Positions 19,684-61,581 are shown, counted from the first letter of the stretch. The stretch is DNA of 64,000 nucleotides from an uncultured Bacteroidia bacterium (GCA_902787095.1 CADAFC010000001.1:9537-73536); one strand, 5' to 3'. The notes: generated from the sequence alone by a model not told the origin. A program made the numbers and translations.

Positions 19684-19697
19684 ATTTTATTGTTTTT

Positions 19698-39275: not shown

Positions 39276-40112
39276 TTATCGTTCGATTCTTTGCCAATTT
39301 GAAGGCGCAATGTCATAGTCGGAAGAGTAATCAAACCACGGTTTGGGTGCCACGACTGTTTTCTCCTGATTAGGATTCAGCCACGCCCCCCACCAGCTGA
39401 ATGAAGAGTTGGCGACGATATTGTGTTTGCAGCAACTCATCAGATACATGTCCTGCCAGCTGTCTTTGCCATTGTTCCAATCCACATACAATGCATTTTC
39501 ACATTTGATGCTTTGTCTTGCCCAATCCACATCATCCGAAAAAAAGGTGAACAATGCGTTTGGGATGCGTTCTTTCAGCAAAGAAATCGACTTATTGTAA
39601 TAATCTGTCGTGCACAAGCCGTAATAATCACGATTACGCAAGTAATCACCGCGACGGATATGCACGGATACACTGTTTATGCTTTTTAAATAAGCGCCTG
39701 TCTCTTTTGTTTTTTCGTTAAGCAGTTCCTCTCTGAACGTAAAAGCCTTTCTGACAGATTTCTCCACTGGCTTGAAATACTTTTCACTCTGCCAAAAACC
39801 CGTGTAACTTGACAAGACATGATGCTCTCTCATCAGACTCGGGTCATATTCCAAACTGTTTTTCTGCACAATTTCATAAAAAGGGCCGAGCATTCTCTGG
39901 CTGTGCTTAATCACCTTGCGATAATACTTTGTTTTCCATCCGCAATCGATGTGAAAAACCTTGTCCAGTTCAAAGCCATTATGGCATCCTCGCGATTGTT
40001 CTGTGTCAAATATGAAAAATGACAGTGGTGACTCGTGTCTCATCCTCAGATAAAACGCATACTGGAACATCTGGTTACCGAGACCGCCGTTGAAAACAAT
40101 CGTTTTTATCAT
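39276..40112 (-). CDS. GT11 alpha-1,2-fucosyltransferase family protein
   Basis: 278 aa with GGLGNQMFQYAF at the N-terminus and HIRRGDY. Confidence 0.85.
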   Translation of the reverse strand: MIKTIVFNGGLGNQMFQYAFYLRMRHESPLSFFIFDTEQSRGCHNGFELDKVFHIDCGWKTKYYRKVIKHSQRMLGPFYEIVQKNSLEYDPSLMREHHVLSSYTGFWQSEKYFKPVEKSVRKAFTFREELLNEKTKETGAYLKSINSVSVHIRRGDYLRNRDYYGLCTTDYYNKSISLLKERIPNALFTFFSDDVDWARQSIKCENALYVDWNNGKDSWQDMYLMSCCKHNIVANSSFSWWGAWLNPNQEKTVVAPKPWFDYSSDYDIAPSNWQRIER

Positions 40113-41164
40113 CTTTTTTTGCGTTTGAGCTTGGACTTAACCAGCGAAACAGGTCTTAAAAGGAATCTTCCCAAACGATACTCTTTTGAATTTGAAATAT
40201 CAATGTACCTCTGCCAGATAGCGTCATTCTGCTTGTTTATACTGTCCCATCTCTCGCTAAAACTTTTCATGAAGGCGAGGTTGTTGCTTTCTGAAGTTGA
40301 CAGCATCTCGCTGAAAATCTCGAAGCATCTGATAATTCTTTCTTTTTCTTCCGTTCTGGCATTCACATCAAAAAAAGTGTCAAATGAATATTTTTCAGCC
40401 CATTGTGTCGGGTTGCCATTGACGCGACCGCGTGATTTCTTAATAATCCATTCAACTATGGTTTTGGTGAAATAATGTCTGACATAAGCTACCGAAAAAT
40501 CGTATGGCTTGTGCCAGCTTCCTTCACATCTCTCTCCCTTGTCGTCAACATAAGACAAGCCTCTCAGTCCGTTTATCCCGTGAGGGTCAACACTCCAATC
40601 GGATGCCGGGGTGTTCATCTGATTTTCCTTCAGCAGCCCTCCTCTATAGATATTTTTAACCATATCATTTTGGGGGTAATCACCGCCAAAAAGCTTTATA
40701 TCGTAAGGAAGAGGATTCACAAATCTGTCCAAAACGCTGAAGCTGTCGCAGCAAACAATGTCGTTGTCGCCATACAGCATCCAATTAAGTTGTATGACAT
40801 CAACTTCTTTTTTATCAAAAGTGTGCAGGAACTCATCAATTGTATGAATACCTGAGCTTTCGCTAAAAGTGATGAATTCATCGACATCAATATAGGCTAT
40901 CCAATCATAAACGGCGCCATATCTGTGATAGAAATCCGTATATGCAGGTCTCTGATACATTATCTTTCCCCTGCAATCCAATATGGTCACATGTTCATAG
41001 CCTTCGAACAACGGTTCAATCCTTTCCCCGTCTATGGCATTATTGTCATAGATAAAAATATCCTTAAAGCCAATGCCCAAATGGTAATCGACCCATTCTT
41101 TCAGATAATGGTTTTCACACTTGGCAATACAGCAAATCGCCGTATTAAAGGCTTGGTCACTCAT
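40109..41164 (-). CDS. GT92/DUF23-like glycosyltransferase
   Basis: 351 aa with CCIAKCENHYLKEWVDYHLGIGFKDIFIYDNN and YIDVDEF. The family call is from memory. Confidence 0.55.
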   Translation of the reverse strand: MSDQAFNTAICCIAKCENHYLKEWVDYHLGIGFKDIFIYDNNAIDGERIEPLFEGYEHVTILDCRGKIMYQRPAYTDFYHRYGAVYDWIAYIDVDEFITFSESSGIHTIDEFLHTFDKKEVDVIQLNWMLYGDNDIVCCDSFSVLDRFVNPLPYDIKLFGGDYPQNDMVKNIYRGGLLKENQMNTPASDWSVDPHGINGLRGLSYVDDKGERCEGSWHKPYDFSVAYVRHYFTKTIVEWIIKKSRGRVNGNPTQWAEKYSFDTFFDVNARTEEKERIIRCFEIFSEMLSTSESNNLAFMKSFSERWDSINKQNDAIWQRYIDISNSKEYRLGRFLLRPVSLVKSKLKRKKR

Positions 41165-41165
41165 A

Positions 41166-42473
41166 TTAGTTTGTCGGGTTTGATATCGGAGCTATCACAG
41201 GTGTAGACGTCACAAAAGCTATTCTGCCATGTTTCCAGCTCGTGAACGGCTGATTGTGCGCTATATCCTTATAATTCACTTCAAATCGTATGACATCGCT
41301 GACAATGTCAAAATCATAGATTGGATTGTTGAAGTCACAATTACCTATGCTGAAATTGACTTTGTACCTGCCTTTTGCCAGCTGATGGTTGGGCAGGCTC
41401 ATTTCAACCCTCATCAGGTCGGCATTTTCTGGCAGTTCAACCTTTTCCGACCATGCGGCACCTACAATATTCTCGCCGCTGTCGCGGATGCTGAGTCCGA
41501 ATTGGCAATTATGTATCATTGATACATTACGTTTCACTTCCATCACAAATGACAGCGGTTCCTCGTTAGCCACGCTGTTACAATCGTTAAGCATTCGTAT
41601 GCTCACATACTCCACTTCACGAATAACATTGTCCCAGTGATGATGATTTTCAATCTTGGTATAGTTATACAATTCGGCGAGGTTGGCTCCGTTGTAATAA
41701 TCCACACAGTCAGCGGCGGTGCCGGTAAATGCGATGCTGCCATTGTGCAACACCATGCCGTTTTTGCACAGTTGCCTGACACTTCCCATGTTATGACTCA
41801 CAAACAGCACTGTCCTCCCCTCGCCTTTTGAGATATCATGCATCTTACCGATGGCTTTTTTCTGAAATTCGGCGTCGCCAACAGCAAGCACCTCATCAAC
41901 GACGAGTATCTCGGGTTCAAGAAATGCTGCCACGGCGAAACCGAGACGCACTGTCATACCGCTGGAATAACGTTTCACCGGCGTGTCGATATAGCGCTCG
42001 CAACCGGAAAAATCAATAATTTCATCAAGTTTGCGGTCAATTTCATTTTTTGTCATGCCCAAGATGGCGCCGTTCATGTAAATATTCTCGCGTCCTGTCA
42101 GCTCCCTGTGAAAACCTGTGCCGACCTCAAGCAGGCTGGCGATACGGCCTCTCGCTTTTATGGTGCCTGTAGTCGGTGACGTCACACGTGACAGCAGCTT
42201 CAACAACGTGCTTTTGCCTGCACCGTTTTTCCCGATGATGCCTACCACATCACCCTGCTCCACCTTGAAATCAATGTCTTTCAACGCCCATACAAAATCG
42301 CTGTCGGCGGCTTTGGAGCGGTCGTTAACCGAGCCGATCTGCAAATACGGGTCTTCCTTGCCCAAGACATGCATTTTCCACCATCTGTCAAGGTCGTAGC
42401 TTAGCGTTTTTGTTGAGACAAGCCCCAAACGGTATTCTTTGCTTACGTGATTGAATTCTATTGCTGTCGGCAT
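41166..42473 (-). CDS. wzt: Polysaccharide/teichoic-acid ABC exporter ATP-binding protein (Wzt/TagH-like) with C-terminal glycan-binding-type domain, copy 1
   Basis: 435 aa with Walker A GKNGAGKST, signature YSSGM and Walker B ILVVDE. A C-terminal extension of about 180 aa follows the NBD. Confidence 0.9.
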   Translation of the reverse strand: MPTAIEFNHVSKEYRLGLVSTKTLSYDLDRWWKMHVLGKEDPYLQIGSVNDRSKAADSDFVWALKDIDFKVEQGDVVGIIGKNGAGKSTLLKLLSRVTSPTTGTIKARGRIASLLEVGTGFHRELTGRENIYMNGAILGMTKNEIDRKLDEIIDFSGCERYIDTPVKRYSSGMTVRLGFAVAAFLEPEILVVDEVLAVGDAEFQKKAIGKMHDISKGEGRTVLFVSHNMGSVRQLCKNGMVLHNGSIAFTGTAADCVDYYNGANLAELYNYTKIENHHHWDNVIREVEYVSIRMLNDCNSVANEEPLSFVMEVKRNVSMIHNCQFGLSIRDSGENIVGAAWSEKVELPENADLMRVEMSLPNHQLAKGRYKVNFSIGNCDFNNPIYDFDIVSDVIRFEVNYKDIAHNQPFTSWKHGRIAFVTSTPVIAPISNPTN

Positions 42474-42479
42474 AAAAAA

Positions 42480-43511
42480 CTAATTTTTAAATAATTCTTC
42501 GACACCTATTGTACTCAAAAACAATTTGTTTTTATATGGCCACCCATCAGTGTAAGTATACCACAAATACAACTGGTTATCAACAACTTGCGCTGTAGGC
42601 TTATAAAATCTCTGCCGATGACCGACAATTTTATCAGAATAATTATTATTCAACAAAGGTGTTTTGACTGTCGTGAAATGCCTCCAATCGCGACTTTCCG
42701 ACAACATTACAAAGTCATCCATCTCATCGCTTGAAACCATATACAAACGGCCGTCATGCTCAAACAAATCGAAATGCCACAAGTCATATCTTTTTATAAC
42801 GGGTATGAAAAACAAACGACCGAAGAACTTGTTCTCAAAAAACCTGTCCCAGACAAGAGGATTATTCACTTTGACTTTGTCAATCAGCTTGAAATCAGGA
42901 TTCTCCAATGATGTTCCTTCCCAAATCGTTATTCCCAGATTCCTTAGGAACGACTTACGCCGACGCCAAAGGGTGTAGAAATAGTATTTCCCATTGTGTT
43001 TTATCAGTGTCGGGCATATTGTATGGTCTTTCGCGCCTTCATCTGCCGTGATATATACCTTCTCTTCTGTCATCTTGCCGTCATCGCCTACAATTCCGCC
43101 CATCACCATGCGTGATTTGCCATATTTTTGGCATCGTGGAGTGTCCACTTCGCGCCAAAACACATAAATCCTGCCATTTTCTTCAAAAACATTGGGATCG
43201 GAGTTGTATCCTGTTGCCGGAGTGTCTTTTAGGACAACGCCGTCATGCCAACTAGCAGGATCTTCAGAGAAATACAATATCGGGTTCTCCACACCATCCT
43301 GCGCAGCTGGCCATGGCGACTGCACCATCACATATCTGCCATCCTCAAGTCGTCGTATGCACGGATGCACACAGTCATTTTGATATTTTTCAGGATCTGG
43401 TGTGGTGACCTCACACTGTCTCCCTGGAGCCAGACGCTGCTTCGGATCATATAGCAAGCATAACATGACTCCCAAAACAGCTAATACAACAAAAACCGAC
43501 AATACAATCAC
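42480..43511 (-). CDS. Orphan membrane-anchored protein (one N-terminal TM helix; aromatic-rich, possibly beta-propeller glycosidase/phosphorylase-like ectodomain)
   Basis: 343 aa with an N-terminal hydrophobic helix (MIVLSVFVVLAVLGVMLCLL). Repeated W/Y/F-rich beta-strand-like segments (GRIYVFW, GKYYFYTLW, GRLYMVSS, NQLYLWYTY) follow. It is translationally coupled on both sides. The fold assignment is a guess. Confidence 0.45.
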   Translation of the reverse strand: MIVLSVFVVLAVLGVMLCLLYDPKQRLAPGRQCEVTTPDPEKYQNDCVHPCIRRLEDGRYVMVQSPWPAAQDGVENPILYFSEDPASWHDGVVLKDTPATGYNSDPNVFEENGRIYVFWREVDTPRCQKYGKSRMVMGGIVGDDGKMTEEKVYITADEGAKDHTICPTLIKHNGKYYFYTLWRRRKSFLRNLGITIWEGTSLENPDFKLIDKVKVNNPLVWDRFFENKFFGRLFFIPVIKRYDLWHFDLFEHDGRLYMVSSDEMDDFVMLSESRDWRHFTTVKTPLLNNNYSDKIVGHRQRFYKPTAQVVDNQLYLWYTYTDGWPYKNKLFLSTIGVEELFKN

Positions 43512-44797
43512 TTTACGCTAACTTTAATGTCCTGGTAAGCGGTTTTCCCACTAACCGCCCAATTCAAGAAAGGCTTGGTATGACCCGCATCGACGTATGT
43601 GACCTGAAAACTTATCACATCACGGACTATGTCATAGTCTATATCATTGGAGTCATAGCCAAACTGGCAAATATTAAAATTCACACTATATTTCCCTTTT
43701 GCAAGTTGGTGGTTTTTAATCTCTATATTGACTTCGCCGACTTCATCGTTAAGGTTCAATTCAACAGCCTCGGAGTACGCTGCGCCGACACCGCGTCCCA
43801 TATCATCTTTTATGACAACGCCGAAATTGCATTTTGTGACACGCGAGTCGTTTCTTTTGAATCGTGCCGTGAAACGCAGAGGCTCTTCTGTTGACACGTT
43901 TTTCACGTCATTATCCATCTTCACGCTGAGATACTCAAGCTTCCTTGTCAGGTATGGTAGCTGATGACTCTTGGTTATCTCGGTATAATCGGTCAGGTCG
44001 GCAATGGCTGACGCCAGATATTTTTCGACCACACTTTCAATATCGCCGGTGTATGCTATGCTGCCTTTGTCGAGCAGTATGCCATGATGGCACAATGTCC
44101 TGATGCTTTCCATGTTATGACTCACAAACAGCACCGTTCTGCCCTCGCCGCTGCTCACGTCCTGCATCTTGCCTATCGCTTTCTGCTGGAACTCTGCGTC
44201 ACCAACGGCAAGCACCTCGTCGACGACGAGTATTTCAGGCTCCAAAAACGCCGCCACCGCAAAGCCGAGGCGGACAATCATACCGCTCGAATAACGTTTC
44301 ACAGGAGTGTCGATGTAACGTTCACATCCGCTGAAATCGACAATCTCATCGAGTTTGTGGGATATCTCCTTTTTGGTCATTCCCAAGATGGCGCCGTTCA
44401 TATATATGTTTTCACGTCCCGTCATCTCCGAATGGAAACCGGTGCCCACTTCCAACAGCGCTCCGATGCGGCCTTTGGTGCGGATGGTGCCCGTAGTCGG
44501 ACCTGTCACCCTGGAAAGGAGCTTCAGCATGGTGCTTTTGCCTGCGCCGTTTTTACCGATGATACCGACAACATCACCCTGCTCGATTTTGAAGTTTATG
44601 TCCTTCAAAGCCCACACGAAATCGCTGTCGGCGGCTTTTGAGCGGTCGTTCACCGAACCGACTTTCAGATACGGGTCTTCCTTGCCAAGGATATGCATCT
44701 TCCACCAACGGTTCAGGTCATGACTGAGCGTTTGGGTGGAAACCAACCCCAAACGGTATTCCTTACTTACATTATTGAATTCTATTGCTGTACTCAT
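43508..44797 (-). CDS. wzt: Polysaccharide/teichoic-acid ABC exporter ATP-binding protein (Wzt/TagH-like), copy 2
   Basis: 429 aa. The NBD is nearly identical to copy 1 (same Walker A, signature and Walker B context). The C-terminal domain is homologous but much more diverged. Confidence 0.9.
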   Translation of the reverse strand: MSTAIEFNNVSKEYRLGLVSTQTLSHDLNRWWKMHILGKEDPYLKVGSVNDRSKAADSDFVWALKDINFKIEQGDVVGIIGKNGAGKSTMLKLLSRVTGPTTGTIRTKGRIGALLEVGTGFHSEMTGRENIYMNGAILGMTKKEISHKLDEIVDFSGCERYIDTPVKRYSSGMIVRLGFAVAAFLEPEILVVDEVLAVGDAEFQQKAIGKMQDVSSGEGRTVLFVSHNMESIRTLCHHGILLDKGSIAYTGDIESVVEKYLASAIADLTDYTEITKSHQLPYLTRKLEYLSVKMDNDVKNVSTEEPLRFTARFKRNDSRVTKCNFGVVIKDDMGRGVGAAYSEAVELNLNDEVGEVNIEIKNHQLAKGKYSVNFNICQFGYDSNDIDYDIVRDVISFQVTYVDAGHTKPFLNWAVSGKTAYQDIKVSVK

Positions 44798-44863
44798 TTC
44801 GTAATCAATGTATTAACAATCCTCTCCGCCTATGTGCATGCGCCAGCTATAATTGTTATTTTT

Positions 44864-46504
44864 TCATTTTTTTCTACAATATACTGTCCTTTTTTCAGCA
44901 TTGGAAAAGTTTTGAACCCTTGACTCCGGAGTCCCCATACCGTAGGCATCAAATTCTTCAGGCCACCCCCATCCCATCGTCCTCAGCCTTTCACCCATCA
45001 CTTTTTCATCCCATCCGCTAAGGATTATAAAATCAGGACGTAACATGTCTTTGGTATCCCAATACAGGAAATTGTTGGTTTGATGAAAATTAGACGACAA
45101 AACAGCATCAAAAGCATACACGGTAGCATAGTCAAACAATGCCGTGAATACCACCGAGCTGTTTGATTTAAAACCATAATCTGACATCAAATCATACATG
45201 TTGTCATAATACTCTTTCTGCTTTTCGGTAAGTGATATCTCCGCAAAATACTTGTTGCCTCTGGTAAAATGGAATCTGTCATCCCTGTTGTTCAAAGTAT
45301 TAACGGTTTTTAACGTATAAGGTACCAGGATGGCAAGAATTGCAGCTAATGCTACATACCATTTTGTTTCTTCCTTCTGCTCAAACCACAAAAACGCCCA
45401 TGCGACAATGAAACATGCCACTCTGAAACTAAAAGTGTTACTCCCTACAGATGCAATAACAGGGAAACAGAATAAGAAGAGCCTCATTATCGTATCTTTG
45501 GACAACATCGCTTTAAAACCCCCATTTTCGCATTCAAAAGCCAATGGTATAAGCACCACACTTGAGAAAAACACGTAAGGGGATATTGCTGGTTTTTTCT
45601 GGTAATTAAAACAAATGAAAACCAGTACCAAATAAACAAGTCCCCCTATCCAAGCAAACTTCCCGCAAACAATTTTTTTCGAAAGAAAATAAGCCCCTAT
45701 ATAAAACACGATGACGAATATGCTGTCTCTGACGAATAAGCCTATATAAGAACACATGCTCAAAAAATCGTAACCATATCCGGTCTTGGTGAAATACGAA
45801 GCTGTGAAACGCATGGCATCAACGATCTTGTCAACGGGACAAATGCACAAATGCATATACGCCACACAAAGCACAACGCCTACGATACCAACGCCAATTT
45901 CCTTTATACTTTGAATATAGCGCCGTCCATTCATTATCAACAGGATGATTACATAAAATGCCATTGTCAATAACCCGGCTGGCATAATCACAAACAGAGA
46001 AAGACCCGCCATAAACCCAGCCACGAGCAACATGCCATATTTTAACCAGATGTTCTCTTTTTTCCAATAAATGATAAATGCTGAAACCGATGTGCAAAGA
46101 AGAAACGTCTGTAAGGCGACATAACTCATCTGTCCCGCTTTAGGCAATAATAACAACAAACATACAGCCAAATACTTCAGACAATTTTTATTTCCAAATG
46201 CAACAATGCTTGCTATCGTCGCATTCAAAACCGTCGCCAACATTAATATGTAACCTGACATGCGAGACTGTATCATACTTGACAAATCCATATATGGAAA
46301 CCAATTCACGGCAATGAAATTCCATTGTGACTTGCCTGTTATAACACCTTCTTTTACTTCTTTAGCTTTCAAAAGGAAATATGCATCGTCATAAAATGTT
46401 TGGAAGCCATAATCGAACAACGTGAACCTCGCCACGCATAACAACGATAGGATAACCAACAACAACAAGTATGGCAAGGAGTTCTTATTGATATATTTTG
46501 TCAT
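44864..46504 (-). CDS. Polytopic membrane protein, GT-C-like (candidate Gtr-type periplasmic glycosyltransferase)
   Basis: 546 aa with at least 11 hydrophobic helices and a soluble C-terminal domain of about 150 aa. It lies directly downstream of GtrA- and GtrB-like genes, matching the classic gtrA-gtrB-gtr(type) order. Confidence 0.55.
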   Translation of the reverse strand: MTKYINKNSLPYLLLLVILSLLCVARFTLFDYGFQTFYDDAYFLLKAKEVKEGVITGKSQWNFIAVNWFPYMDLSSMIQSRMSGYILMLATVLNATIASIVAFGNKNCLKYLAVCLLLLLPKAGQMSYVALQTFLLCTSVSAFIIYWKKENIWLKYGMLLVAGFMAGLSLFVIMPAGLLTMAFYVIILLIMNGRRYIQSIKEIGVGIVGVVLCVAYMHLCICPVDKIVDAMRFTASYFTKTGYGYDFLSMCSYIGLFVRDSIFVIVFYIGAYFLSKKIVCGKFAWIGGLVYLVLVFICFNYQKKPAISPYVFFSSVVLIPLAFECENGGFKAMLSKDTIMRLFLFCFPVIASVGSNTFSFRVACFIVAWAFLWFEQKEETKWYVALAAILAILVPYTLKTVNTLNNRDDRFHFTRGNKYFAEISLTEKQKEYYDNMYDLMSDYGFKSNSSVVFTALFDYATVYAFDAVLSSNFHQTNNFLYWDTKDMLRPDFIILSGWDEKVMGERLRTMGWGWPEEFDAYGMGTPESRVQNFSNAEKRTVYCRKK

Positions 46505-47213
46505 GCTTCAAATTCCTGTTAATCATTCTGAAATCTCCCAACGCCTTCCAACCTATCTTGAAAATCCTCTTCATGTTGATGGAGTTCACACCGCCCTGGC
46601 GTGGACGGAAAGTTATAGGATACCAGGCGACAGACTCTTTTTTCTTGACAGCGATAGCTGAAACTGCCACATTTGCCAGGAAAAAGTCCTCTGGTATGTA
46701 TTTCATAACAGCAGCGAGACGTTCGGCATTCATCAAACGGAAAGGAGTATTTGCATCCTTGACCCATACGCCAAACATCAGCCACACCACCAATCTTAGA
46801 GTCTTGGTTACAAACACGCGACTCGCACCATCCTGTCTTCCACAACGGGTGCCGATAACGAAGGAAGCCTCTGTGCGATGCTCCCAGAATTGCCAGAATT
46901 CATCTGGAAGAGTTTGCCCATCACTGTCAGTTTGAAACACATAATCAGCACCTTTCCCTATGGCATAACGATAAGCATAAAGCACTGTCGCGCCGTGACC
47001 TGAATTCGGTTTGTTGACGACCTCAAGTAATGGATACTCCCCCTTCAACGAGCAAAGCATCTCCCATGTGTTATCCTTGCTTCCATCATTCACTATCAAC
47101 AGCTTAGCTTCCGCATCGGATAATTTTTCAGCTATAGGATGCCATTGTTTCACCACTTCCTCGATATTTTCAGCCTCGTTATATGCTGGCATCACCAAAT
47201 ATAATCTATCCAT
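46485..47213 (-). CDS. Polyprenyl-phosphate glycosyltransferase (GtrB/DPM1-like GT2)
   Basis: 242 aa with LVMPAYNEAENIEEVV, VNDGSKDNT and QTDSDGQ. Confidence 0.8.
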   Translation of the reverse strand: MDRLYLVMPAYNEAENIEEVVKQWHPIAEKLSDAEAKLLIVNDGSKDNTWEMLCSLKGEYPLLEVVNKPNSGHGATVLYAYRYAIGKGADYVFQTDSDGQTLPDEFWQFWEHRTEASFVIGTRCGRQDGASRVFVTKTLRLVVWLMFGVWVKDANTPFRLMNAERLAAVMKYIPEDFFLANVAVSAIAVKKKESVAWYPITFRPRQGGVNSINMKRIFKIGWKALGDFRMINRNLKHDKIYQ

Positions 47214-47611
47214 CAGGCAAATTTTTTGAAAGTGATGAACTTATTCAGTAAAAACTGGCATAAAGCCACTATCACGACTGTAATCAGTTTGGCAATAATA
47301 TAATTCATACCATAACCTGTCGCCATTAAGTAAATTAGCAGCTCGCTCAGCGCCAGACCCATCAGACCAACCAGGTAAAAGACGGTTAAACGATGGGCTA
47401 TGTGGTCCTTGACTTTGAAATTATAATGCCTGTTAAGCAAAAAACTGCATAAAATACCGGTGTGAACACTGATTACATTAGCCCAAAGATATGGCATCCA
47501 CAATCCGAGCAATGTATATAATCCGAAATCCAATGCCGCACAGAATCCGCCGATGATTCCGTATAGTATCAAATCCCTGTAACGACTATATAATTGTTTT
47601 ACTTTGCTCAT
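47213..47611 (-). CDS. GtrA family membrane protein
   Basis: 132 aa with 4 TM helices. It has a GtrA-like pattern (YGIIGGFCAALDFGLY..., LNRHYNFK). Confidence 0.8.
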   Translation of the reverse strand: MSKVKQLYSRYRDLILYGIIGGFCAALDFGLYTLLGLWMPYLWANVISVHTGILCSFLLNRHYNFKVKDHIAHRLTVFYLVGLMGLALSELLIYLMATGYGMNYIIAKLITVVIVALCQFLLNKFITFKKFA

Positions 47612-48732
47612 CAGTTATCAAAACACCTCATCACTTTTTCAATCACCGGTGCCATGTCGTAATACTTATACTCAGCCAACCTCCCTCCAAATATCACGTT
47701 TTCCTCTTGGTCAGCCAAGGCTTTATATTGTTTGTAGCGAGCCTCGTTTTCGTCATCGTTCACCGGATAATACGGCTCCATTCCTGGTTTCCACTCGGTG
47801 CTGTATTCCCTGGTGATGACTGTCTTCGCATTGTCATAAACAGCATCGCCGAACATCTCGAAATGCTTGTGTTCGATAATCCTTGTGTAAGGGACCTCAC
47901 GTTCGGTGTGATTCACCACGGCATTGCCCTGATAATTGGGTTTTTCAATCACTTCTTGCTCAAACGACAAAGACCGCCATGCAAGATGACCGAAACGGTA
48001 TCCGTAATATGCGTCAATCGGACCAGTGTAAACAATCTTCTCGGCCATGTCAGTCAGTTCGGCACCATGCTCAAAGAAATCGCAGTTTACACGGGTCTCT
48101 ACACCTTCGAGCAAGCCTTTAATCAGTTTGTTGTATCCGCCAACGGGAATGCCCTGATAGCTGTCATTGAAATAGTTGTTGTCAAACACAAACCTCAAAG
48201 GCAGCCTCCTGATAATAAATGCCGGCAACTTGGTGCAACTTCTGCCCCATTGTTTCTCTGTATAGCCTTTTATAAGAGTTTCGTAGATGTCACGCCCCAC
48301 CATGCTCAACGCCTGCTCCTCCAGATTGGCAGGCTCACGCCCGTTCAATGCCTCAAGAGCCTCCTTGCGCTGCTCCTCAATCTTAGCCTTTGCCTCATCT
48401 GGAGTTGTCACGCCCCACATCTGATAAAAGGTGTTCATATTAAACGGCAGGTTGTAAAGCTTCCCTTTGTAATTCGCCACCGGACAGTTGGTGTAACGGT
48501 TAAACGGGACTATGCCGTTCACAAAATCCCAAACTTCTTTGTTTGATGTATGGAATATGTGCGCCCCATACTTGTGTACGTTGATTCCTTCAACATTATC
48601 GCAATACACATTACCTCCAAGACACGGCCGCTTGTCGATGACAAGGCATTTCTTGCCCGCTTTTTTTGCAAAATGCGCAAAAGTGGAACCGAAGAGGCCA
48701 GAACCCACTATGACGTAATGGTATCGCTTCAT
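47611..48732 (-). CDS. glf: UDP-galactopyranose mutase
   Basis: 373 aa with an N-terminal FAD motif (YVIVGSGLFGSTFA...LVIDKRPCLGGNVY). Conserved HIFHT and YPVND motifs are present. Confidence 0.93.
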   Translation of the reverse strand: MKRYHYVIVGSGLFGSTFAHFAKKAGKKCLVIDKRPCLGGNVYCDNVEGINVHKYGAHIFHTSNKEVWDFVNGIVPFNRYTNCPVANYKGKLYNLPFNMNTFYQMWGVTTPDEAKAKIEEQRKEALEALNGREPANLEEQALSMVGRDIYETLIKGYTEKQWGRSCTKLPAFIIRRLPLRFVFDNNYFNDSYQGIPVGGYNKLIKGLLEGVETRVNCDFFEHGAELTDMAEKIVYTGPIDAYYGYRFGHLAWRSLSFEQEVIEKPNYQGNAVVNHTEREVPYTRIIEHKHFEMFGDAVYDNAKTVITREYSTEWKPGMEPYYPVNDDENEARYKQYKALADQEENVIFGGRLAEYKYYDMAPVIEKVMRCFDN

Positions 48733-56676: not shown

Positions 56677-57656
56677 ATTAAGGCTCTATATATTCTGTCA
56701 AACCTTATTTTCAACACTCTGGATAGCCTTTTCTTGAAAGATTGTATCGTTTTGCAATTCAGATAGGTTATTGATGTATGCCTTACTATCTTTTTGCATT
56801 CACATCTCACATTCTGCAAAACGTTGGTCCCTTGAACCAAATCAAGTAATGTGGCCATGTAAATATAAAGAAACTCCAGTGTATATCTGCGACAACAAGC
56901 GGGTTTTATATTCATAGTGCGAAAATTATCATATAAAATCCGAATGACACACAATTTGCTGTTGATATTATAATTCGCCGAAGAAATGGCAGATGACTGG
57001 CGGTACACCCAAAAATACAGCGCTTCATCAACATAGATGATTCGTGGGGCTTTTTGATAAACCTTCAAACTGAAATCACAATCTTGGGCATACCTGTAAT
57101 TGCCAGTGCGAATATCGTTTATCAGATCCCTCCTGTATAATTTATTCCATATATTCCTTCCTGTGAAATGTTCCGTGGGACGCACAAACACTTCAAGCAC
57201 ATCTTCCAAAGTTTTCTCGACAAAATCCGGCTTTATCTCCGACGATGTATCCTTATCAAAATGACTGGTATGCTCATATCCGACAAATGCCACATCATAT
57301 TTGTCTCCTGAAGCATTTGTCCGATTAATCGCCTCATACATTATCTTGATGATGTCCTTATGGAAATAATCATCTCCGTCGGGAAACCACAAGTATTCCC
57401 CATGTGCCACATCCTGTCCGGTGTTTCTGGCTGCCCATAAACCCCTGTTCTCAGGATGATGGATTACTCGGGCACGGGGGTCTTTGGCCGCAAACTCATC
57501 ACAAAGCTGCCCAGAGCCATCGGAAGACCCGTCATCAACAAGAATTATCTCCAGATTCTTATATGTCTGCCTTTCTATGCAGTCCAAACATCGTGGGAGA
57601 TAATTCCCGATGTTATATACGGGAACGATGACACTGACCAGAGGTTCCATTTTCAC
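56673..57656 (-). CDS. GT2 family glycosyltransferase
   Basis: 327 aa with VSVIVPVYNIGNYLPRCLDCI, VDDGSSDGS and FPDGDD. Confidence 0.85.
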   Translation of the reverse strand: MKMEPLVSVIVPVYNIGNYLPRCLDCIERQTYKNLEIILVDDGSSDGSGQLCDEFAAKDPRARVIHHPENRGLWAARNTGQDVAHGEYLWFPDGDDYFHKDIIKIMYEAINRTNASGDKYDVAFVGYEHTSHFDKDTSSEIKPDFVEKTLEDVLEVFVRPTEHFTGRNIWNKLYRRDLINDIRTGNYRYAQDCDFSLKVYQKAPRIIYVDEALYFWVYRQSSAISSANYNINSKLCVIRILYDNFRTMNIKPACCRRYTLEFLYIYMATLLDLVQGTNVLQNVRCECKKIVRHTSITYLNCKTIQSFKKRLSRVLKIRFDRIYRALI

Positions 57657-58528
57657 ACCGTATCCATGAAGCTCTTCTGCACCTTATTAAATATTAATAT
57701 GCCGAGAGCCAGCACCACTATCATAAATCCGAAGCTGTAGGCGAGCCAGCCCCAGCCGATAAAATGGCTCGCGCCGAGAAATCCGTGTTTGAACGTCTCG
57801 ATAATCGGCGTCACCGGGTTGAGGCACATCAGCGTGGTGAGGTCGAAACCTGCCACCTTCTTGCCTGCCACCTGACTCAAAGGATAGACAATAGGTGTGG
57901 CATACATCCACAACTGCACCAAAAACGAGAACAGCACCTGCAAATCGCGGTACTTGGTGGTCAATGATGAGATTATGGTGCCGAAACCAAGTGCCAGTCC
58001 TGCCATCATTATCACCAAGATAGGAAACAGCAGAGCGTATAGGGTCAGATGGGCGTTACATGTTGGGTTGAACAGCCAATAGCCTATATATATCACCACA
58101 AACAGTCCGAACTGTATGCTGAATCTCAGCAGGTTACTGGTGACATCGGCCAGCGGCATCACAAGACGGGGAAAATATACTTTTCCGAATATGCCGGAGT
58201 TGTTGACAAAAGTATTCGATGTCTTTGTCAGACAGTCGGAAAAATACTGCCACATGCAGATTCCGCAGAGGTAAAACAGCGGTTGTGGCACTCCGTCGGT
58301 AGGGATGCCGGCGATGCCGCCGAACACCACCATATACATGATTACCGTCAGGGCTGGCTGTATGAGCCACCACAACGGTCCGAGCACAGTCTGTTTGTAT
58401 TGTGTTATGATGTTTCTTTTAACGAAAAGGGCGCATAAATCACGATAGCGCCACAATTCTTTAAAATCAACTGAAAAAATGCTTTCCTTTGGCTTTATGA
58501 CCAAATCCCAGTCTTTAGTTTCTGCCAT
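57653..58528 (-). CDS. wzm: ABC-2 type polysaccharide exporter permease (Wzm/TagG-like)
   Basis: 291 aa with 6 TM helices. The N-terminal pattern is typical of Wzm/TagG (ELWRYRDLCALFVKRNIITQYKQTVLGPLWWLIQP). Confidence 0.88.
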   Translation of the reverse strand: MAETKDWDLVIKPKESIFSVDFKELWRYRDLCALFVKRNIITQYKQTVLGPLWWLIQPALTVIMYMVVFGGIAGIPTDGVPQPLFYLCGICMWQYFSDCLTKTSNTFVNNSGIFGKVYFPRLVMPLADVTSNLLRFSIQFGLFVVIYIGYWLFNPTCNAHLTLYALLFPILVIMMAGLALGFGTIISSLTTKYRDLQVLFSFLVQLWMYATPIVYPLSQVAGKKVAGFDLTTLMCLNPVTPIIETFKHGFLGASHFIGWGWLAYSFGFMIVVLALGILIFNKVQKSFMDTV

Positions 58529-58530
58529 AT

Positions 58531-59667
58531 TTAGTTAGATCGTTTTCTTTTGAACAAAATATTGCCGATTATGTGCCAGAAATAGCGCCAATCGGTACGG
58601 AACGGATGTTTCCTGTAGGCTTCAATGTACTTTTTCTCTGATTCCTGAATCTCTTCGAGTGTCTCAGGTGTCTTGTCTTCGTAATAGAACGGAGGCATCA
58701 GTCCTGGCTTCACGCTGATGTGCATCTGCTGCATCTCAGGGGTGTACATATTGAAGTATGCCGAACTCAAAGGACGCACGCCCACCAGCTTCATCTCACC
58801 TCTCAGCACATTGATTATCATTGGCAATTCATCATAAAGATTGCTCCGGAACAGGCGGCCCCACATGTTGATGCGATAGTCGTCTTTGTATTTGCCGCCT
58901 CGTTGCAGGCCCTCGCGCTCCATCATGTAAGGCTGCAGATACTCCGAGTAGGCATACATCGTCCTGAATTTATAGACTTTTATCTGTTTCCCATGGTATC
59001 CGACGCGGCCGAGTTTGATCATTAATCCATAGTTACGGGCTTTGGTGCGACGAGGTTCTTTTGCCTTTTGTCCCAGCACGTAAAACTCACCCATGCTGAA
59101 GCGTTCGTCGACGATGTCGAAACCTGCACGGCATATCCTGCCCAGAATCTCCACCCTCGGGTAAGAGCGGTTCTTGCCTTTTGTAACCCAAAAATAGAAC
59201 CAGCGGGTAAGATACAGCTTGGAAAAGACCCTGTGCCAGACGTAGTAGTTAACGCTCCACAGCTTGCCTCTTATGCCAGGGCAGGCGTTCAGCAAAGACT
59301 CACGTTTCAGTGCCGCGGTACGCGAGTGGCACCACAGATAGCCGCCGTCGGCAAGAGCATCGTTAGCTGTGCTTAGAAAGGTATCAAGGTCAGGAATATA
59401 TGACAGACCTTTTTTGTTGAGGATAAGCTCAGGTTTCGACTCCTCCAGTTTCTTGATATCCTCTATCTTGTCGGTGTCGATGATAGCCGTGGTATCCTGA
59501 AGCTCATCGGCATGTTTGTCCAACCATTCAGCTATAGCATCCGACTTACGGCCATTTATTGCTTTAAGAATGACTGCCAGATCAGGGTATGTAACGTTGT
59601 CCACATCCAGCTTCGCGCCTTCCCTTACCCCTCTTTCAGTGTAGTCCCTAAGATCTTTGTTTTTCAT
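58531..59667 (-). CDS. Phosphoglycosyl transferase (bacterial sugar transferase family) with an atypical N-terminal domain of about 190 aa
   Basis: 378 aa. The C-terminal catalytic core is present (KVYKFRTM, DELPMIINVLRGEMKLVGVRPL). The N-terminal half is not hydrophobic and looks like a degenerate methyltransferase fold (ALADGGYLWC..., GFDIVDE). Confidence 0.8.
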   Translation of the reverse strand: MKNKDLRDYTERGVREGAKLDVDNVTYPDLAVILKAINGRKSDAIAEWLDKHADELQDTTAIIDTDKIEDIKKLEESKPELILNKKGLSYIPDLDTFLSTANDALADGGYLWCHSRTAALKRESLLNACPGIRGKLWSVNYYVWHRVFSKLYLTRWFYFWVTKGKNRSYPRVEILGRICRAGFDIVDERFSMGEFYVLGQKAKEPRRTKARNYGLMIKLGRVGYHGKQIKVYKFRTMYAYSEYLQPYMMEREGLQRGGKYKDDYRINMWGRLFRSNLYDELPMIINVLRGEMKLVGVRPLSSAYFNMYTPEMQQMHISVKPGLMPPFYYEDKTPETLEEIQESEKKYIEAYRKHPFRTDWRYFWHIIGNILFKRKRSN

Positions 59668-59676
59668 TACTTAAAA

Positions 59677-60864
59677 TCATTCTTTGATAGTCGTAATCAA
59701 CACGCAACGGCTGAGTTCTTTTTCGTCGTAGAACATATAGTCGACACCGCCCTTGTAGTCGATAACCAATGTCGCCGGATCCACGCCGCATTCATTAACG
59801 AGGAAGTTAAACACCGCATGTGCACGGTTTTCCGAAAGCATGAGGTTGTGTGCCGGAGTAGCCGTCTGCTTGTCGGCGTAGCCGCAGATGAGATAACGTT
59901 GTCCCGGGAGGCCCTTCATGGCGTCGGCATAAGCATGCAGGTTAACCTTCTCCTTGTTCGAGATGTCCCAACGGTCTATCTGGAAGATTATATGGAACCA
60001 GAATTCAGGAACCTGTTTCTCTTTTATCACGACAGTGTCGGTAAGCATGACTGTGTCGGGACGCACCGCTTCGCCAAGATGCAGGATTTCGGTTGTACGG
60101 CGGGCAGGATTCCATTTGCTCATCTTCTTGCCGAGCAATATTGACAAACCTGCAGTCACTCCGAAGTTGCCGTCCATCTTGACATTTGCCTTGCGGTGAC
60201 TCATACTTGGCTCCACCACATATATCTCACCGTCGAAATCGTCGGAGAGGAGAGCGCCTCTTACGGCAATCATAAACCTCACATAATCGGTGATTTTGAA
60301 TTTGTTGATAACGCCAATATTGAACATGCCGCTTCGCACGCCTATGACGTTACGGAGGTCAAGATGTGCGAGGGCATAGTACTGAGTGAACCAGCCTCTC
60401 TGTTTTTTGAGTTCCATATAGTCATACTTGGGGTCGGCGCGTGTGTAGAAATCGTCGGTCTTGAAGTTGGCGACATACCACGTCCCCGCGTCTCTCGACT
60501 GATACAGTCCCTTGAAACGGGCAGTGGTGATGCCTAAACTGATACCTATTGAAGGTGACGCCCATTTGGTAATCTGAAAATCAATTGCGGGGAAGGCTAT
60601 CATCTCTGTGAAATCCTTCACCTTGTCGTCGTTTTCTCCATAATAAAGATGCGGACCTATACCGGCGACAAACTCCCAGTTATGCCAGAATCCGTTTGTG
60701 AAAAAGACCTCTTTCTCCACCACTGTGGTGGTGATAATCTTAACCGAATCCGTTACTGTTTCCTCAACAATGGTATAAGACTTGCCTTTTTTGTTTTCCT
60801 GTGCGAATAGCATGCACGGAATCAGCGTCAAAATCATAACCAATACTGTTATCCGTTTTCTCAT
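59677..60864 (-). CDS. OmpA-family outer-membrane protein
   Basis: It has a signal peptide (MRKRITVLVMILTLIPCMLFAQ). The C-terminal OmpA domain is present (ICGYADKQTATPAHNLMLSENRAHAV). The start is set at ATG 60864. Confidence 0.8.
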   Translation of the reverse strand: MRKRITVLVMILTLIPCMLFAQENKKGKSYTIVEETVTDSVKIITTTVVEKEVFFTNGFWHNWEFVAGIGPHLYYGENDDKVKDFTEMIAFPAIDFQITKWASPSIGISLGITTARFKGLYQSRDAGTWYVANFKTDDFYTRADPKYDYMELKKQRGWFTQYYALAHLDLRNVIGVRSGMFNIGVINKFKITDYVRFMIAVRGALLSDDFDGEIYVVEPSMSHRKANVKMDGNFGVTAGLSILLGKKMSKWNPARRTTEILHLGEAVRPDTVMLTDTVVIKEKQVPEFWFHIIFQIDRWDISNKEKVNLHAYADAMKGLPGQRYLICGYADKQTATPAHNLMLSENRAHAVFNFLVNECGVDPATLVIDYKGGVDYMFYDEKELSRCVLITTIKE

Positions 60865-60886
60865 AATTACGTTTTTATATAAGTTG

Positions 60887-61513
60887 TTATACATTAAGTT
60901 CCAACCAAGAGCTCTCAACCTCCACTGAGGCTGAGCCCAATATATCGAGCGACACGTAAAGACGCCGTCTGTTGTCTTCAGTACGCGTCACCGTGCCCTC
61001 CAATCCTGCAAGTTTGCCAACCACAACACGCACTTTGTCGCCGGCAGAATATGACATTCCCGTCTCCTCAAAGGTGACGGGCAGCTCATCTTGTTCGAGC
61101 ATACGGCGGAATATCGCCATCTCTTTGTCGGGGATGACAGCCGCAGAGGCTCTTCCATCTATATTATCGCGACGCGACGGGTCTACCATAAAACGATAGA
61201 TATAAGGCAACGTCACAACGTTCTTCAATCTTTCGTTTTCTGTCGTGCGCACAAAGACCTTTGACGTAAGCACCAATTTGTCAACCCATTTTTTACGACC
61301 GCTGGCGTACTGCTTAAACACGCGTTGAACCGGAATATAGTTTTCATATCCGAGCTCCGTGAGCCTCTTCCCACAAATCTTTTCGCTTCCATGTTTCACG
61401 ATGGCGACAAACCAACGTTTTTCTTCTGAAAACGCTATGCCTACGGCGTCGGCTGCGACATTTGCAGTCGTATTTGTAGGATAAACAACTATTCGTGTTG
61501 TACGAGCAACCAT
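60887..61513 (-). CDS. UpxY-family (NusG-like) transcription antiterminator, first gene of the locus
   Basis: It has a NusG-like NGN region (KRWFVAIVKHGSEKICGKRLTELGYENYIPVQ) and a KOW motif (GDKVRVVVGKLAGLEGTV). The ORF-track start (61576) is a TTG inside the -7 box, so the first ATG (61513) is used. The true start may be further in. Confidence 0.8.
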   Translation of the reverse strand: MVARTTRIVVYPTNTTANVAADAVGIAFSEEKRWFVAIVKHGSEKICGKRLTELGYENYIPVQRVFKQYASGRKKWVDKLVLTSKVFVRTTENERLKNVVTLPYIYRFMVDPSRRDNIDGRASAAVIPDKEMAIFRRMLEQDELPVTFEETGMSYSAGDKVRVVVGKLAGLEGTVTRTEDNRRRLYVSLDILGSASVEVESSWLELNV

Positions 61514-61573
61514 ACAAACGATTGAAAACGAGACACTTACGAAAAATCGTTTCGCTATCTCTAAAAACAACTG

Positions 61574-61581
61574 CAAAAATA
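61574..61581 (-). promoter_or_regulatory. Bacteroidetes-type -7 promoter box (TAnnTTTG) for the upxY-led locus
   Basis: The minus strand reads tatttttg, about 60 nt upstream of ATG 61513. Confidence 0.4.

What the first reader, a model, noticed from the sequence alone, without database searches (positions are those of the whole stretch)
41166..44797. Two Wzt/TagH ATPases with near-identical NBDs but diverged C-terminal domains, and only one Wzm permease
The first 240 or so residues of the two proteins are almost superimposable (for example AIEFN.VSKEYRLGLVST.TLS.DL.RWWKMH.LGKEDPYL..GSVNDRSKAADSDFVWALKDI.FK.EQGDVVGIIGKNGAGKST). The C-terminal 180 or so residues are only loosely similar. In characterised Wzt proteins such as E. 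coli O9a, this is the domain that recognises the chain-terminating cap of the glycan.

This pattern suggests either a heterodimeric NBD pair or one exporter serving two differently capped polymers. At the DNA level the 5' halves are direct repeats of roughly 700 nt about 2.3 kb apart. Recombination between them could delete the intervening gene and create a chimeric wzt.
Basis: partly seen in the sequence, partly recalled or inferred. Interest (0 to 1): 0.65.

Follow-up and report, generated by a model that had tools for sequence, protein, structure and literature searches.

The report
Two Wzt ATPases sharing one permease
A rumen Bacteroidales bacterium carries, inside one large surface-sugar gene cluster, two intact versions of the ATPase that selects finished sugar chains for export but only one membrane channel for them; the two are old relatives of separate origin, so one exporter probably accepts two differently ended chains.

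Summary
Two intact wzt genes lie at 43508-44797 (WztU) and 41166-42473 (WztD). A GH43-like gene separates them. The only wzm in the 64-kb window lies 13 kb upstream.

The ATPase domains are 85% identical in protein and 77% in DNA. The C-terminal domains are 41% identical. Both C-terminal domains pass the Pfam Wzt_C threshold, and their models best match solved Wzt carbohydrate-binding domains.

The contrast between domains is not special to this pair. All 113 family members compared show 77-89% ATPase identity and 35-70% C-terminal identity to either copy. The in-genome paralog ranks only 19th-22nd in ATPase similarity, and dS between the copies is saturated. So this is not a recent duplication or gene conversion. 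It looks like a mosaic of two locus types, and each wzt sits next to a characteristic downstream gene.

The two-wzt state is rare: none of 80 other species-representative loci has two intact copies. It is stable in this lineage across at least five locus variants. Both genes, including their C-terminal domains, are under purifying selection (omega 0.05-0.16). Both appear in metatranscriptome assemblies.

The best reading is two cap-reading ATPases sharing one Wzm. Whether they pair as homodimers or heterodimers is unresolved. I rate it a new variant of a known kind, of moderate interest.

The parts
43508..44797 (-). wztU: upstream Wzt, 429 aa. ABC ATPase domain at aa 1-245 (44063-44797). Hinge helix plus Wzt_C carbohydrate-binding module at aa 253-429 (43511-44041).
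   Evidence: PF00005 80/74 bits. The isolated CTD scores 43.0 bits on Wzt_C against a gathering score of 30.4. It aligns over residues 59-399 with full-length A. aeolicus Wzt 8dku, E 1e-62. The AF2 model of the CTD has pLDDT 89.3, and its top PDB hits are 2r5o, 8dky, 6o14 and 5hno. Omega is 0.049 against L097.
42480..43511 (-). Intervening gene: a 343-aa protein with an N-terminal hydrophobic anchor and weak GH43 (five-bladed propeller) similarity, from an uncharacterised family. Its GTG start overlaps the wztU stop (GTGA).
   Evidence: PF04616 34.5 bits. It has 257 homologues, all unnamed. No PDB relative is found by sequence or by profile. The junction was read. Omega is 0.15 against L097.
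41166..42473 (-). wztD: downstream Wzt, 435 aa. ABC ATPase domain at aa 1-245 (41739-42473). Hinge helix plus Wzt_C module at aa 253-435 (41169-41717). It starts 6 nt after the stop of the GH43-like gene.
   Evidence: PF00005. The isolated CTD scores 37.8 bits on Wzt_C. The AF2 model has pLDDT 91.0, and its top PDB hits are 2r5o, 8dky, 6o14 and 5hno. Omega is 0.067 against L097. The junction was read.
57653..58528 (-). wzm: the only ABC-2 permease gene in the window, 291 aa.
   Evidence: PF01061 55.1 bits. It matches the NCBIfam galactan Wzm/RfbD model below its cut-off. tblastn finds no second copy at E<=10.
40109..41164 (-). GT92/GT2_4-like glycosyltransferase (351 aa) immediately downstream of wztD. 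It travels with D-type CTDs in other genomes and is a candidate chain terminator (inference).
   Evidence: PF13704 and PF01697. A 65-76% identical homologue directly follows every D-type Wzt found (L091, L007, L008).
44864..47611 (-). Strain-variable cassette upstream of wztU. It holds a GtrA-like protein (47213-47611), a GT2 (46485-47213) and a 546-aa protein with about 10 predicted TM helices (44864-46504). Together they resemble a three-component periplasmic glycosylation system.
   Evidence: Pfam and TM count. The cassette is replaced by Epimerase_2 or by only 18-21 nt in other strains.
47611..48732 (-). glf (UDP-galactopyranose mutase), the conserved left flank of the wzt region.
   Evidence: PF03275 264.7 bits. 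It is conserved in L007, L009 and L094.
58531..61576 (-). Head of the locus: UpxY-like NusG (60887-61576), OmpA-family protein (59677-60918) and WbaP-like initiating phosphoglycosyltransferase (58531-59667).
   Evidence: Pfam and NCBIfam. L009 has the same head.
17206..20477 (-). Tail of the locus: Wza-like Poly_export protein (19698-20477) and Wzc-like GNVR/AAA_31 protein (17206-19683).
   Evidence: Pfam.

Best explanation
The window holds one long minus-strand surface-glycan locus, from about 61.6 to 17.2 kb, of a rumen Bacteroidales bacterium of the same species as GCA_017541845.1. It belongs to the ABC-transporter-dependent kind.

Relatives normally have one wzm, then glycosyltransferase and sugar-nucleotide genes, then one wzt, then a serotype-variable region. 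Here two wzt genes of separate ancestry stand in tandem, each followed by its own companion gene: wztU with the GH43-like gene, and wztD with the GT92-like gene. The locus looks like the head of a 'U-type' variable region joined in front of a complete 'D-type' wzt and variable region.

Both proteins are complete, catalytically canonical ATPases with a Wzt_C carbohydrate-binding module. Both are maintained by selection and both appear to be transcribed.

The most likely mechanism is inferred, not shown. Both dock on the single Wzm channel. Each uses its own hinge helix and binding module to capture a different non-reducing terminus, so one channel exports two differently terminated glycans or glycoforms made by the locus. 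Whether the working complexes are Wzm2-U2 plus Wzm2-D2, or mixed Wzm2-U-D, is open.
For: Locus type:
- The conserved architecture is seen in L007 and L009, in the Pfam scans of the window and in the positions of wzm and wzt in the 80 loci.

Separate ancestry:
- The paralog ranks 19th/22nd of 113 for the NBD and 76th/73rd for the CTD. The bootstrap probability of being the nearest neighbour is <=0.006.
- dN is 0.11 and dS about 1.5 in the NBD.
- Each CTD has closer relatives elsewhere: U to P0014 at 62% and P0008 at 57%; D to P0060 at 70% and P0029 at 66%.

Modules:
- D-type Wzt proteins in single-wzt loci are always followed by the GT92-like gene.
- L091 shares the order GtrA-GT2-membrane protein-Wzt-GT92-GT11-GT2-FdtA-FdtA with the window.
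- U-type relatives have a TupA-like ATP-grasp gene within about 4 kb downstream of wzt. Variant L094 of the same species still has that gene between the two wzt.

Functionality:
- All ABC motifs are invariant in both copies.
- The Wzt_C fold is confirmed for both.
- Against L097 (dS about 0.4), WztU has omega 0.049 (CTD 0.073) and WztD has omega 0.067 (CTD 0.159).
- Both genes are intact in five locus variants.
- Both are present at similar depth in RNA-run contigs. One contig spans wztD and most of the GH43-like gene.

Different specificity:
- The segment aligned to the A. aeolicus trap loop is 0/7 identical (FGYDSND versus CDFNNPI).
- The positions aligned to Leu300, Ala348, His350, Met353, Asp354 and His355 differ between U and D.

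Rarity:
- Of 80 loci from other species, none has two intact wzt. One (L085) has a truncated remnant.
Against: - No glycan structure, cap chemistry or binding data exist for this organism.
- No terminator of the WbdD or WbbB kind was identified.
- The alignment to the A. aeolicus pocket lies in a region of 14-19% identity.
- The GH43-like allele differs by 37% between strains while the U CTD stays 97% identical. This weakens a strict pairing of cap enzyme and binding module.
- Nine CTD residues are invariant across the family, including in both copies, so part of the ligand could be shared.
- A second wzm elsewhere in the genome was not excluded.
- The RNA evidence is from assembled contigs and may include DNA carry-over.
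Confidence: 0.5

Rival explanations
1. Regular heterodimer. WztU and WztD assemble together on Wzm2 and their binding modules form a heterodimer. This gives a single bispecific, or cooperatively specific, transporter.
For: - In A. aeolicus WzmWzt the module dimer docks on only one NBD at a time. Only one module, together with the hinge helix of its own chain, holds the O antigen (PMC9445017, read). A mixed dimer could therefore present either pocket.
- The two genes are co-transcribed neighbours at similar RNA contig depth.
- They are always inherited together in this lineage.
- The hinge-helix Tyr (A. aeolicus Y233, here Y260) is invariant.
Against: - Both NBDs have full consensus Walker A/B, signature, D-loop and H-loop motifs. 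The asymmetry typical of many obligate heterodimers is absent.
- The C-terminal strand, which is exchanged between protomers in solved module dimers, is 0/7 identical between U and D and is the most variable segment in the family.
- NBD similarity gives no sign of co-adaptation.
- No multimer prediction could be run.
Confidence: 0.2
2. Redundant passenger. One copy is a leftover of the recombination that built the mosaic locus and adds no new specificity. The two are functionally redundant, or one is idle.
For: - Loci of this family carry recombination scars. L085 has a truncated NBD and duplicated wzm. The cassette upstream of wztU is swapped between strains. dS within wztD jumps from 0.61 to 0.11.
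- The U-type companion gene TupA has been lost in the window.
- Against the closest strain, the GH43-like gene shows 0 synonymous and 10 non-synonymous changes.
Against: - Both genes, including both CTDs, show omega 0.05-0.16 over dS of about 0.4.
- Both are intact in every one of five locus variants and in two lineages about 10% apart in DNA.
- Both are represented in RNA assemblies.
- An idle gene would be expected to decay, as in L085.
Confidence: 0.2
3. Recent in-situ duplication followed by accelerated divergence of the C-terminal domain or homogenisation of the NBD. This is the evolutionary picture implied by the first reader.
For: The genes are in tandem with the same orientation, and NBD identity is higher than CTD identity.
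Against: - dS in the NBD is 1.3-1.9.
- The longest exact match is 25 nt.
- About 20 NBDs from other organisms are closer than the paralog, and each CTD has closer relatives elsewhere.
- The same contrast between NBD and CTD holds for every pair in the family.
Confidence: 0.03

Closest known systems
Cap-dependent WzmWzt O-antigen ABC transporters (E. coli O9a, Raoultella terrigena/K. pneumoniae O12, Aquifex aeolicus; PDB 2r5o, 5hno, 8dky, 7k2t, 8dku)
   Same: - An ABC-2 permease and an ATPase with a C-terminal jelly-roll carbohydrate-binding module are present.
- WztU aligns end to end with A. aeolicus Wzt.
- Both CTD models hit these structures first.
- The hinge-helix Tyr is conserved.
- A candidate glycan-modifying gene lies directly downstream of each wzt. 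P. syringae has wzm-wzt-wbdD in that order (PMC7820976). The same order in E. coli O9a is from my own knowledge.
   Different: - There are two module-bearing Wzt per locus and one Wzm.
- wzm and wzt are 13 kb apart.
- No WbdD- or WbbB-type terminator was recognised.
- The locus also has UpxY, Wza-like and Wzc-like genes.
- The glycan and its cap are unknown.
Serotype switching at wzt in the Pseudomonas syringae CPA locus (PMC7820976)
   Same: The locus is conserved up to wzm or the wzt NBD and becomes variable from wzt onward. The variable block (wzt, terminator, glycosyltransferase) moves by recombination. Here the variable region likewise begins at the hinge helix and CTD of wzt.
   Different: In P. 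syringae the alleles replace each other, giving one wzt per strain. Here two allelic types are kept side by side.
Heterodimeric ABC ATPase pairs with one degenerate site
   Same: Two different NBD proteins are encoded next to each other for one transporter.
   Different: Both NBDs here have all consensus catalytic residues. Nothing marks one site as degenerate.
Single-wzt loci of the same Bacteroidales/Fibrobacter family (L007, L009, L091, L092 and 79 species representatives)
   Same: They share the same head (UpxY-OmpA-PGT-Wzm) and the same glf/Epimerase_2 left flank. NBD identity is 77-89%, and the same downstream companion genes appear.
   Different: They carry one intact wzt. The window's lineage carries two.

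Membership tests
Wzt (CBM-bearing ATPase of glycan ABC exporters) | ABC ATPase domain with Walker A, signature, Walker B, D-loop and H-loop | tested here: met
   PF00005 scores 80.0 and 74.2 bits. GKNGAGKST, YSSGM, ILVVDE, AVGD and SHN lie on invariant columns in both copies. The closest PDB sequences are A. aeolicus Wzt, TarH, TagH and mycobacterial Wzt.
Wzt (CBM-bearing ATPase of glycan ABC exporters) | C-terminal Wzt_C jelly-roll carbohydrate-binding module | tested here: met
   The isolated CTDs score 43.0 bits (U) and 37.8 bits (D) against a gathering score of 30.4. The AF2 models have pLDDT 89 and 91. The best PDB matches for both are 2r5o, 8dky, 6o14 and 5hno, with E 2e-5 to 3.5e-6 for the top hit and TM-scores of 0.5-0.69.
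Wzt (CBM-bearing ATPase of glycan ABC exporters) | Partner ABC-2 permease (Wzm) in the same locus | tested here: met
   PF01061 at 57653-58528. There is exactly one in the window.
Wzt (CBM-bearing ATPase of glycan ABC exporters) | The module binds the non-reducing terminal cap of the cognate glycan | not testable with these tools
   This needs purified domains and glycans. The only available evidence is sequence divergence at positions aligned to the A. aeolicus pocket.
Capped-glycan ABC pathway (O9a/O12 prototype) | Dedicated chain-terminating enzyme, often with a coiled-coil ruler | tested here: inconclusive
   No kinase/methyltransferase (WbdD-like) or GT99 Kdo-transferase hit appears in the Pfam scans of the ORFs scanned across the locus. 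The genes directly downstream of each wzt (GH43-like, GT92-like) are candidates by position and co-inheritance only.
Module dimer formed by C-terminal strand exchange | Dimerisation of two Wzt_C domains | not testable with these tools
   Only monomer models could be made. A terminal strand is predicted in both (E172-176 and E174-177).
Obligate heterodimeric ABC NBD pair | One degenerate and one consensus ATP site | tested here: not met
   All catalytic motifs are consensus in both proteins.
Recent tandem duplicate or gene-converted pair | Paralogs are each other's closest relatives, with low dS | tested here: not met
   dS is 1.3-1.9. The paralog ranks 19th-22nd for the NBD and 73rd-76th for the CTD among 113 family members.

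The most novel reading that the evidence does not exclude
WztU and WztD form a mixed dimer on one Wzm channel. The two different carbohydrate-binding modules pair with each other, and the module dimer docks alternately on either ATPase domain. This would be a natural bispecific glycan exporter that accepts two cap chemistries through a single complex. It would be a mode of substrate selection not described for polysaccharide ABC transporters.
Probability: 0.2. Interest if true: 0.7.

Novelty: new variant of a known kind. Interest (0 to 1): 0.4.

Why it matters
In cap-dependent glycan ABC exporters the binding module of Wzt decides which finished chains leave the cytoplasm. In the characterised systems I know of there is one Wzt per Wzm. 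Here two selected-for Wzt proteins with different modules are set beside a single Wzm.

This is a natural test of three questions:
- Can the channel and ATPase core be shared between specificities?
- Can different modules heterodimerise?
- How do new serotype specificities get added rather than swapped?

It also shows how serotype loci of abundant but uncultured rumen Bacteroidales are built. Exchangeable units of wzt plus a companion gene are joined near the start of the wzt C-terminal region, just past the ATPase domain. The practical consequence is modest until the glycans are known.

Tried and rejected
- Recent duplication or gene conversion was rejected on saturated dS and on the rank of the paralog among family members.
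- A deletion chimera from recombination between the repeats has no support. No protein with a U NBD and a D CTD is among the 120 nearest hits. No 2.3-kb joint appears in contigs of four RNA and four DNA runs. Contigs do hide rare variants.
- A second or divergent Wzm in the window was sought with tblastn using three Wzm proteins at E<=10, plus a scan for multi-TM ORFs. Only the GT-C-like 546-aa and 504-aa (512 aa from its TTG start) membrane proteins turned up.
- L085 was the only other locus with two NBD hits. Its extra copy is a truncated 232-aa remnant lacking the H-loop, beside two wzm genes.
- Literature searches for two wzt genes, wzt paralogs, or wzt1/wzt2 in one locus found nothing relevant. 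Burkholderia wzt2 belongs to a separate cluster. The Mann et al. 2019 census of Wzt-linked modules is not in the searchable library.
- The GH43-like protein has no PDB relative by sequence or by profile and no NCBIfam family.
- A bootstrapped NJ tree timed out. It was replaced by bootstrapped nearest-neighbour ranks.
- The full-length Pfam scan did not list Wzt_C, while the domain-only scan did. I treated this as a filter effect.
Full report
**What is there.**

On the minus strand, ORF 43508-44797 (429 aa, here WztU) and ORF 41166-42473 (435 aa, here WztD) are both complete. A 343-aa ORF (42480-43511) lies between them. The genes are tightly packed:
- The WztU stop and the GTG start of the middle gene overlap as GTGA.
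- The middle gene ends 6 nt before the WztD start.
- WztD is followed after 1 nt by a 351-aa glycosyltransferase gene.

Both Wzt proteins have an ABC_tran domain. The two are 67% identical overall.

By domain:
- Residues 1-250 are 84.8% identical in protein and 77.5% in DNA.
- The remainder is 40% identical in protein and 48% in DNA.
- The break comes at about residue 241.

The DNA repeat has a start-to-start spacing of 2324 nt, and its longest exact match is 25 nt. 'Near-identical' overstates an 85% protein match and a 77% DNA match.

**The locus.**

Pfam scans of the neighbours show one continuous minus-strand glycan locus from about 61.6 kb to 17.2 kb. In order it contains:
- a UpxY-like NusG, an OmpA-family protein and a WbaP-like initiating transferase;
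- Wzm (57653-58528);
- glycosyltransferases and genes for a 2,3-dehydratase pathway;
- CDP-ribitol-type genes (IspD, an SDR) and LicD;
- glf;
- a GtrA/GT2/10-TM membrane-protein cassette;
- WztU, the GH43-like gene, WztD, and GT92-like and GT11 genes;
- two FdtA genes, DegT and many more glycosyltransferases;
- finally Wza-like and Wzc-like genes.

Only one Wzm is present. tblastn with three Wzm proteins finds no other copy even at E<=10.

The organism is an uncultured rumen Bacteroidales bacterium. The window is 97-98.5% identical in DNA to contigs of MAG GCA_017541845.1. The region occurs in cattle, sheep and goat gut metagenomes.

**Are the C-terminal domains Wzt_C modules?**

Yes. Several results agree:
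- Scanned alone, the CTDs score 43.0 bits (U) and 37.8 bits (D) against Pfam Wzt_C, whose gathering score is 30.4.
- WztU aligns from residue 59 to 399 with full-length Aquifex aeolicus Wzt (8dku, 7k2t).
- AlphaFold2 models of both CTDs, built on a 101-sequence alignment, are confident (pLDDT 89.3 and 91.0). They have the same strand layout.
- For both models the best PDB matches are the solved Wzt binding modules: E. coli O9a 2r5o, A. aeolicus 8dky/6o14 and R. terrigena O12 5hno.

**Is the domain-specific divergence special?**

No. The family is large, with 8000 candidates at E<=1e-20 from Bacteroidales and Fibrobacter gut MAGs.

For 120 homologues, NBD identity to either copy is 77-89% and CTD identity is 35-70%. 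Any two members show the same contrast. Among 113 full-length members:
- The in-genome paralog is only the 19th (for U) or 22nd (for D) closest NBD.
- It is the 76th or 73rd closest CTD.
- In 500 bootstraps it was the nearest NBD neighbour in at most 0.6%.

In the NBD, dN is 0.11 and dS is 1.3-1.9, which is saturated.

The pair is therefore old. Purifying selection on the ATPase explains the high protein identity. There is no sign of recent duplication, gene conversion or special NBD co-adaptation. The differences between U and D fall on the columns that vary across the family, with mean entropy 2.28 versus 1.10 bits.

**Where the two copies come from.**

Relatives with one wzt show the usual plan: head genes, Wzm, variable genes, glf, Epimerase_2, Wzt, then a variable region (L007, L009).

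The closest relatives of the D-type CTD are P0060 at 70% and P0029 at 66%. They sit in single-wzt loci and are directly followed by a homologue of the window's GT92-like gene (65-76% identity). L091 even shares the order GtrA-GT2-membrane protein-Wzt-GT92-GT11-GT2-FdtA-FdtA with the window.

The closest relatives of the U-type CTD are P0014, P0008 and P0007. They also sit in single-wzt loci, with a TupA-like ATP-grasp gene within about 4 kb downstream of wzt. A variant of the window's own species (L094) still carries such a gene between the two wzt genes: WztU, a GH43-like allele at 63% identity, TupA, then WztD.

The simplest reading is a mosaic. The beginning of a U-type variable region has been placed in front of a D-type wzt and its variable region.

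Other observations point to frequent recombination at this spot:
- The cassette just upstream of wztU (44831-47628) varies between strains. It is the Gtr-like cassette here, Epimerase_2 in others, or only 18-21 nt.
- dS within wztD jumps from 0.61 in the NBD to 0.11 in the CTD against L097.

This resembles the P. syringae CPA locus, where the variable block starts at wzt (PMC7820976).

**How rare and how stable.**

Among 80 loci from other species, each with 10 kb on either side, none has two intact wzt genes. The single case with a second hit (L085) is a truncated 232-aa NBD remnant next to two wzm genes.

Within the window's lineage the tandem is constant. It is present in all five locus variants seen:
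- the window;
- L001-5;
- L094;
- the form with no cassette;
- L097, a relative about 10% divergent in DNA with a quite different upstream region.

**Are both functional?**

- All catalytic motifs are consensus in both.
- Against the closest strain, WztU has 16 synonymous and 3 non-synonymous changed codons, and WztD has 6 and 1.
- Against L097 (dS about 0.4), omega is 0.049 for WztU (NBD 0.021, CTD 0.073), 0.067 for WztD (NBD 0.049, CTD 0.159) and 0.148 for the GH43-like gene.
- In a sheep-gut metatranscriptome, assembled contigs cover wztD plus most of the GH43-like gene in one piece, and cover wztU at similar depth. DNA carry-over cannot be excluded.

A decaying passenger is thus unlikely.

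**How it most likely works.**

The following points are from PMC9445017. In A. aeolicus WzmWzt:
- the module binds the methylated terminal sugar;
- the two modules form a strand-swapped dimer that docks on one NBD at a time;
- the binding site is completed by the hinge helix (Tyr233) of the same chain.

In the window's proteins that Tyr (Y260) is invariant.

The hinge helix and the segment aligned with the cap-trapping loop differ almost completely between U and D. CTD residues 127-133 read FGYDSND in U and CDFNNPI in D, with 0 of 7 identical. Positions aligned with Leu300, Ala348, His350, Met353, Asp354 and His355 also differ. This alignment lies in a low-identity region, so it is an inference.

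I therefore propose that both ATPases use the one Wzm channel and that each recognises a different chain terminus. By position and co-inheritance, the genes directly downstream of each wzt (GH43-like and GT92-like) are the best candidates for the enzymes that make those termini. The terminator gene follows wzt directly in P. syringae; that it also does so in E. coli O9a is from my own knowledge.

- **Shown:** gene content, folds, ancestry, selection, and presence in RNA assemblies.
- **Inferred:** shared use of Wzm, different ligand specificity, and the role of the companion genes.

**Homodimers or heterodimer.**

The data do not decide. The asymmetric use of the module dimer in A. aeolicus makes a mixed, bispecific complex conceivable. 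Against it, there is no degenerate ATP site, and the terminal strand that is exchanged in known dimers is completely different between the two copies. No multimer model could be run.

**The recombination idea.**

The repeats are 77% identical with at most 25 nt of exact match. No chimeric protein or deletion joint was seen. The tandem has persisted across lineages. Deletion by homologous recombination is possible in principle but is not supported by any observation here.

**Verdict.**

This is a real, rare and stable arrangement, and I rate it a new variant of the known cap-dependent WzmWzt export system. I found no description of two module-bearing wzt genes with one wzm in the searchable literature. 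That is a negative result from a limited library. Interest is moderate. It offers a natural system for asking whether one channel can serve two binding modules, but the glycans, the caps and the organism itself are uncharacterised.

Noticed in passing
window 44831-47628: This is a strain-variable cassette site between glf and wztU. The window has a GtrA-like gene, a GT2 and a 546-aa 10-TM membrane protein, which resemble a three-component periplasmic glycosylation system. Other strains have a 1.07-kb Epimerase_2 gene or only 18-21 nt at the same junctions (44830/44864 and 47629).
   Followed up: partly
window 42480-43511: The GH43-like protein belongs to an uncharacterised family of about 345 aa. 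It has 257 homologues and an N-terminal hydrophobic anchor. The family occurs in glycan clusters with or without a nearby wzt. It has no PDB relative, even by profile. Against the closest strain it shows 0 synonymous and 10 non-synonymous codon changes, including a patch EGAK to ADST at aa 158-161. Against L097 omega is 0.15.
   Followed up: partly
window 41166-42473 versus L097 8297-9604: dS is 0.61 in the NBD half of wztD but 0.11 in the CTD half. This suggests a recombination breakpoint inside the gene, near the domain boundary.
   Followed up: no
L085 7213-11275: A Paludibacteraceae locus carries a truncated 232-aa Wzt NBD with no H-loop, two tandem wzm genes and then an intact wzt. It looks like a recombination scar in the same locus family.
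   Followed up: partly
window 41166-44797 (tool behaviour): The full-length Pfam scan at E<=0.01 did not list Wzt_C for either protein. The isolated C-terminal domains score above the gathering threshold, and the precomputed annotations list PF14524.
   Followed up: yes
L014-L017, L020, L031, L039, L043, L049, L067: Wzt proteins of this family, 55-62% identical overall, occur in Fibrobacter MAGs as well as in Bacteroidales. This suggests exchange of the locus type between phyla in the gut.
   Followed up: no
window 37560-38383: Two tandem FdtA-like (WxcM C-terminal, cupin) genes of 140 and 134 aa lie upstream of a DegT aminotransferase gene. The pair is conserved in L001-4, L091 and L094.
   Followed up: no
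window 17206-20477 and 60887-61576: The ABC-transporter locus also carries Wza-like and Wzc-like genes and a UpxY-type NusG antiterminator. This mixes features of Bacteroidales capsule loci with a Wzm/Wzt exporter.
   Followed up: no
window 40109-41164: The GT92-like protein after wztD has a roughly 100-aa C-terminal extension that ends in a basic tail (…LLRPVSLVKSKLKRKKR). It could be a helical or membrane-associating region like those of known chain terminators. This was not tested.
   Followed up: no
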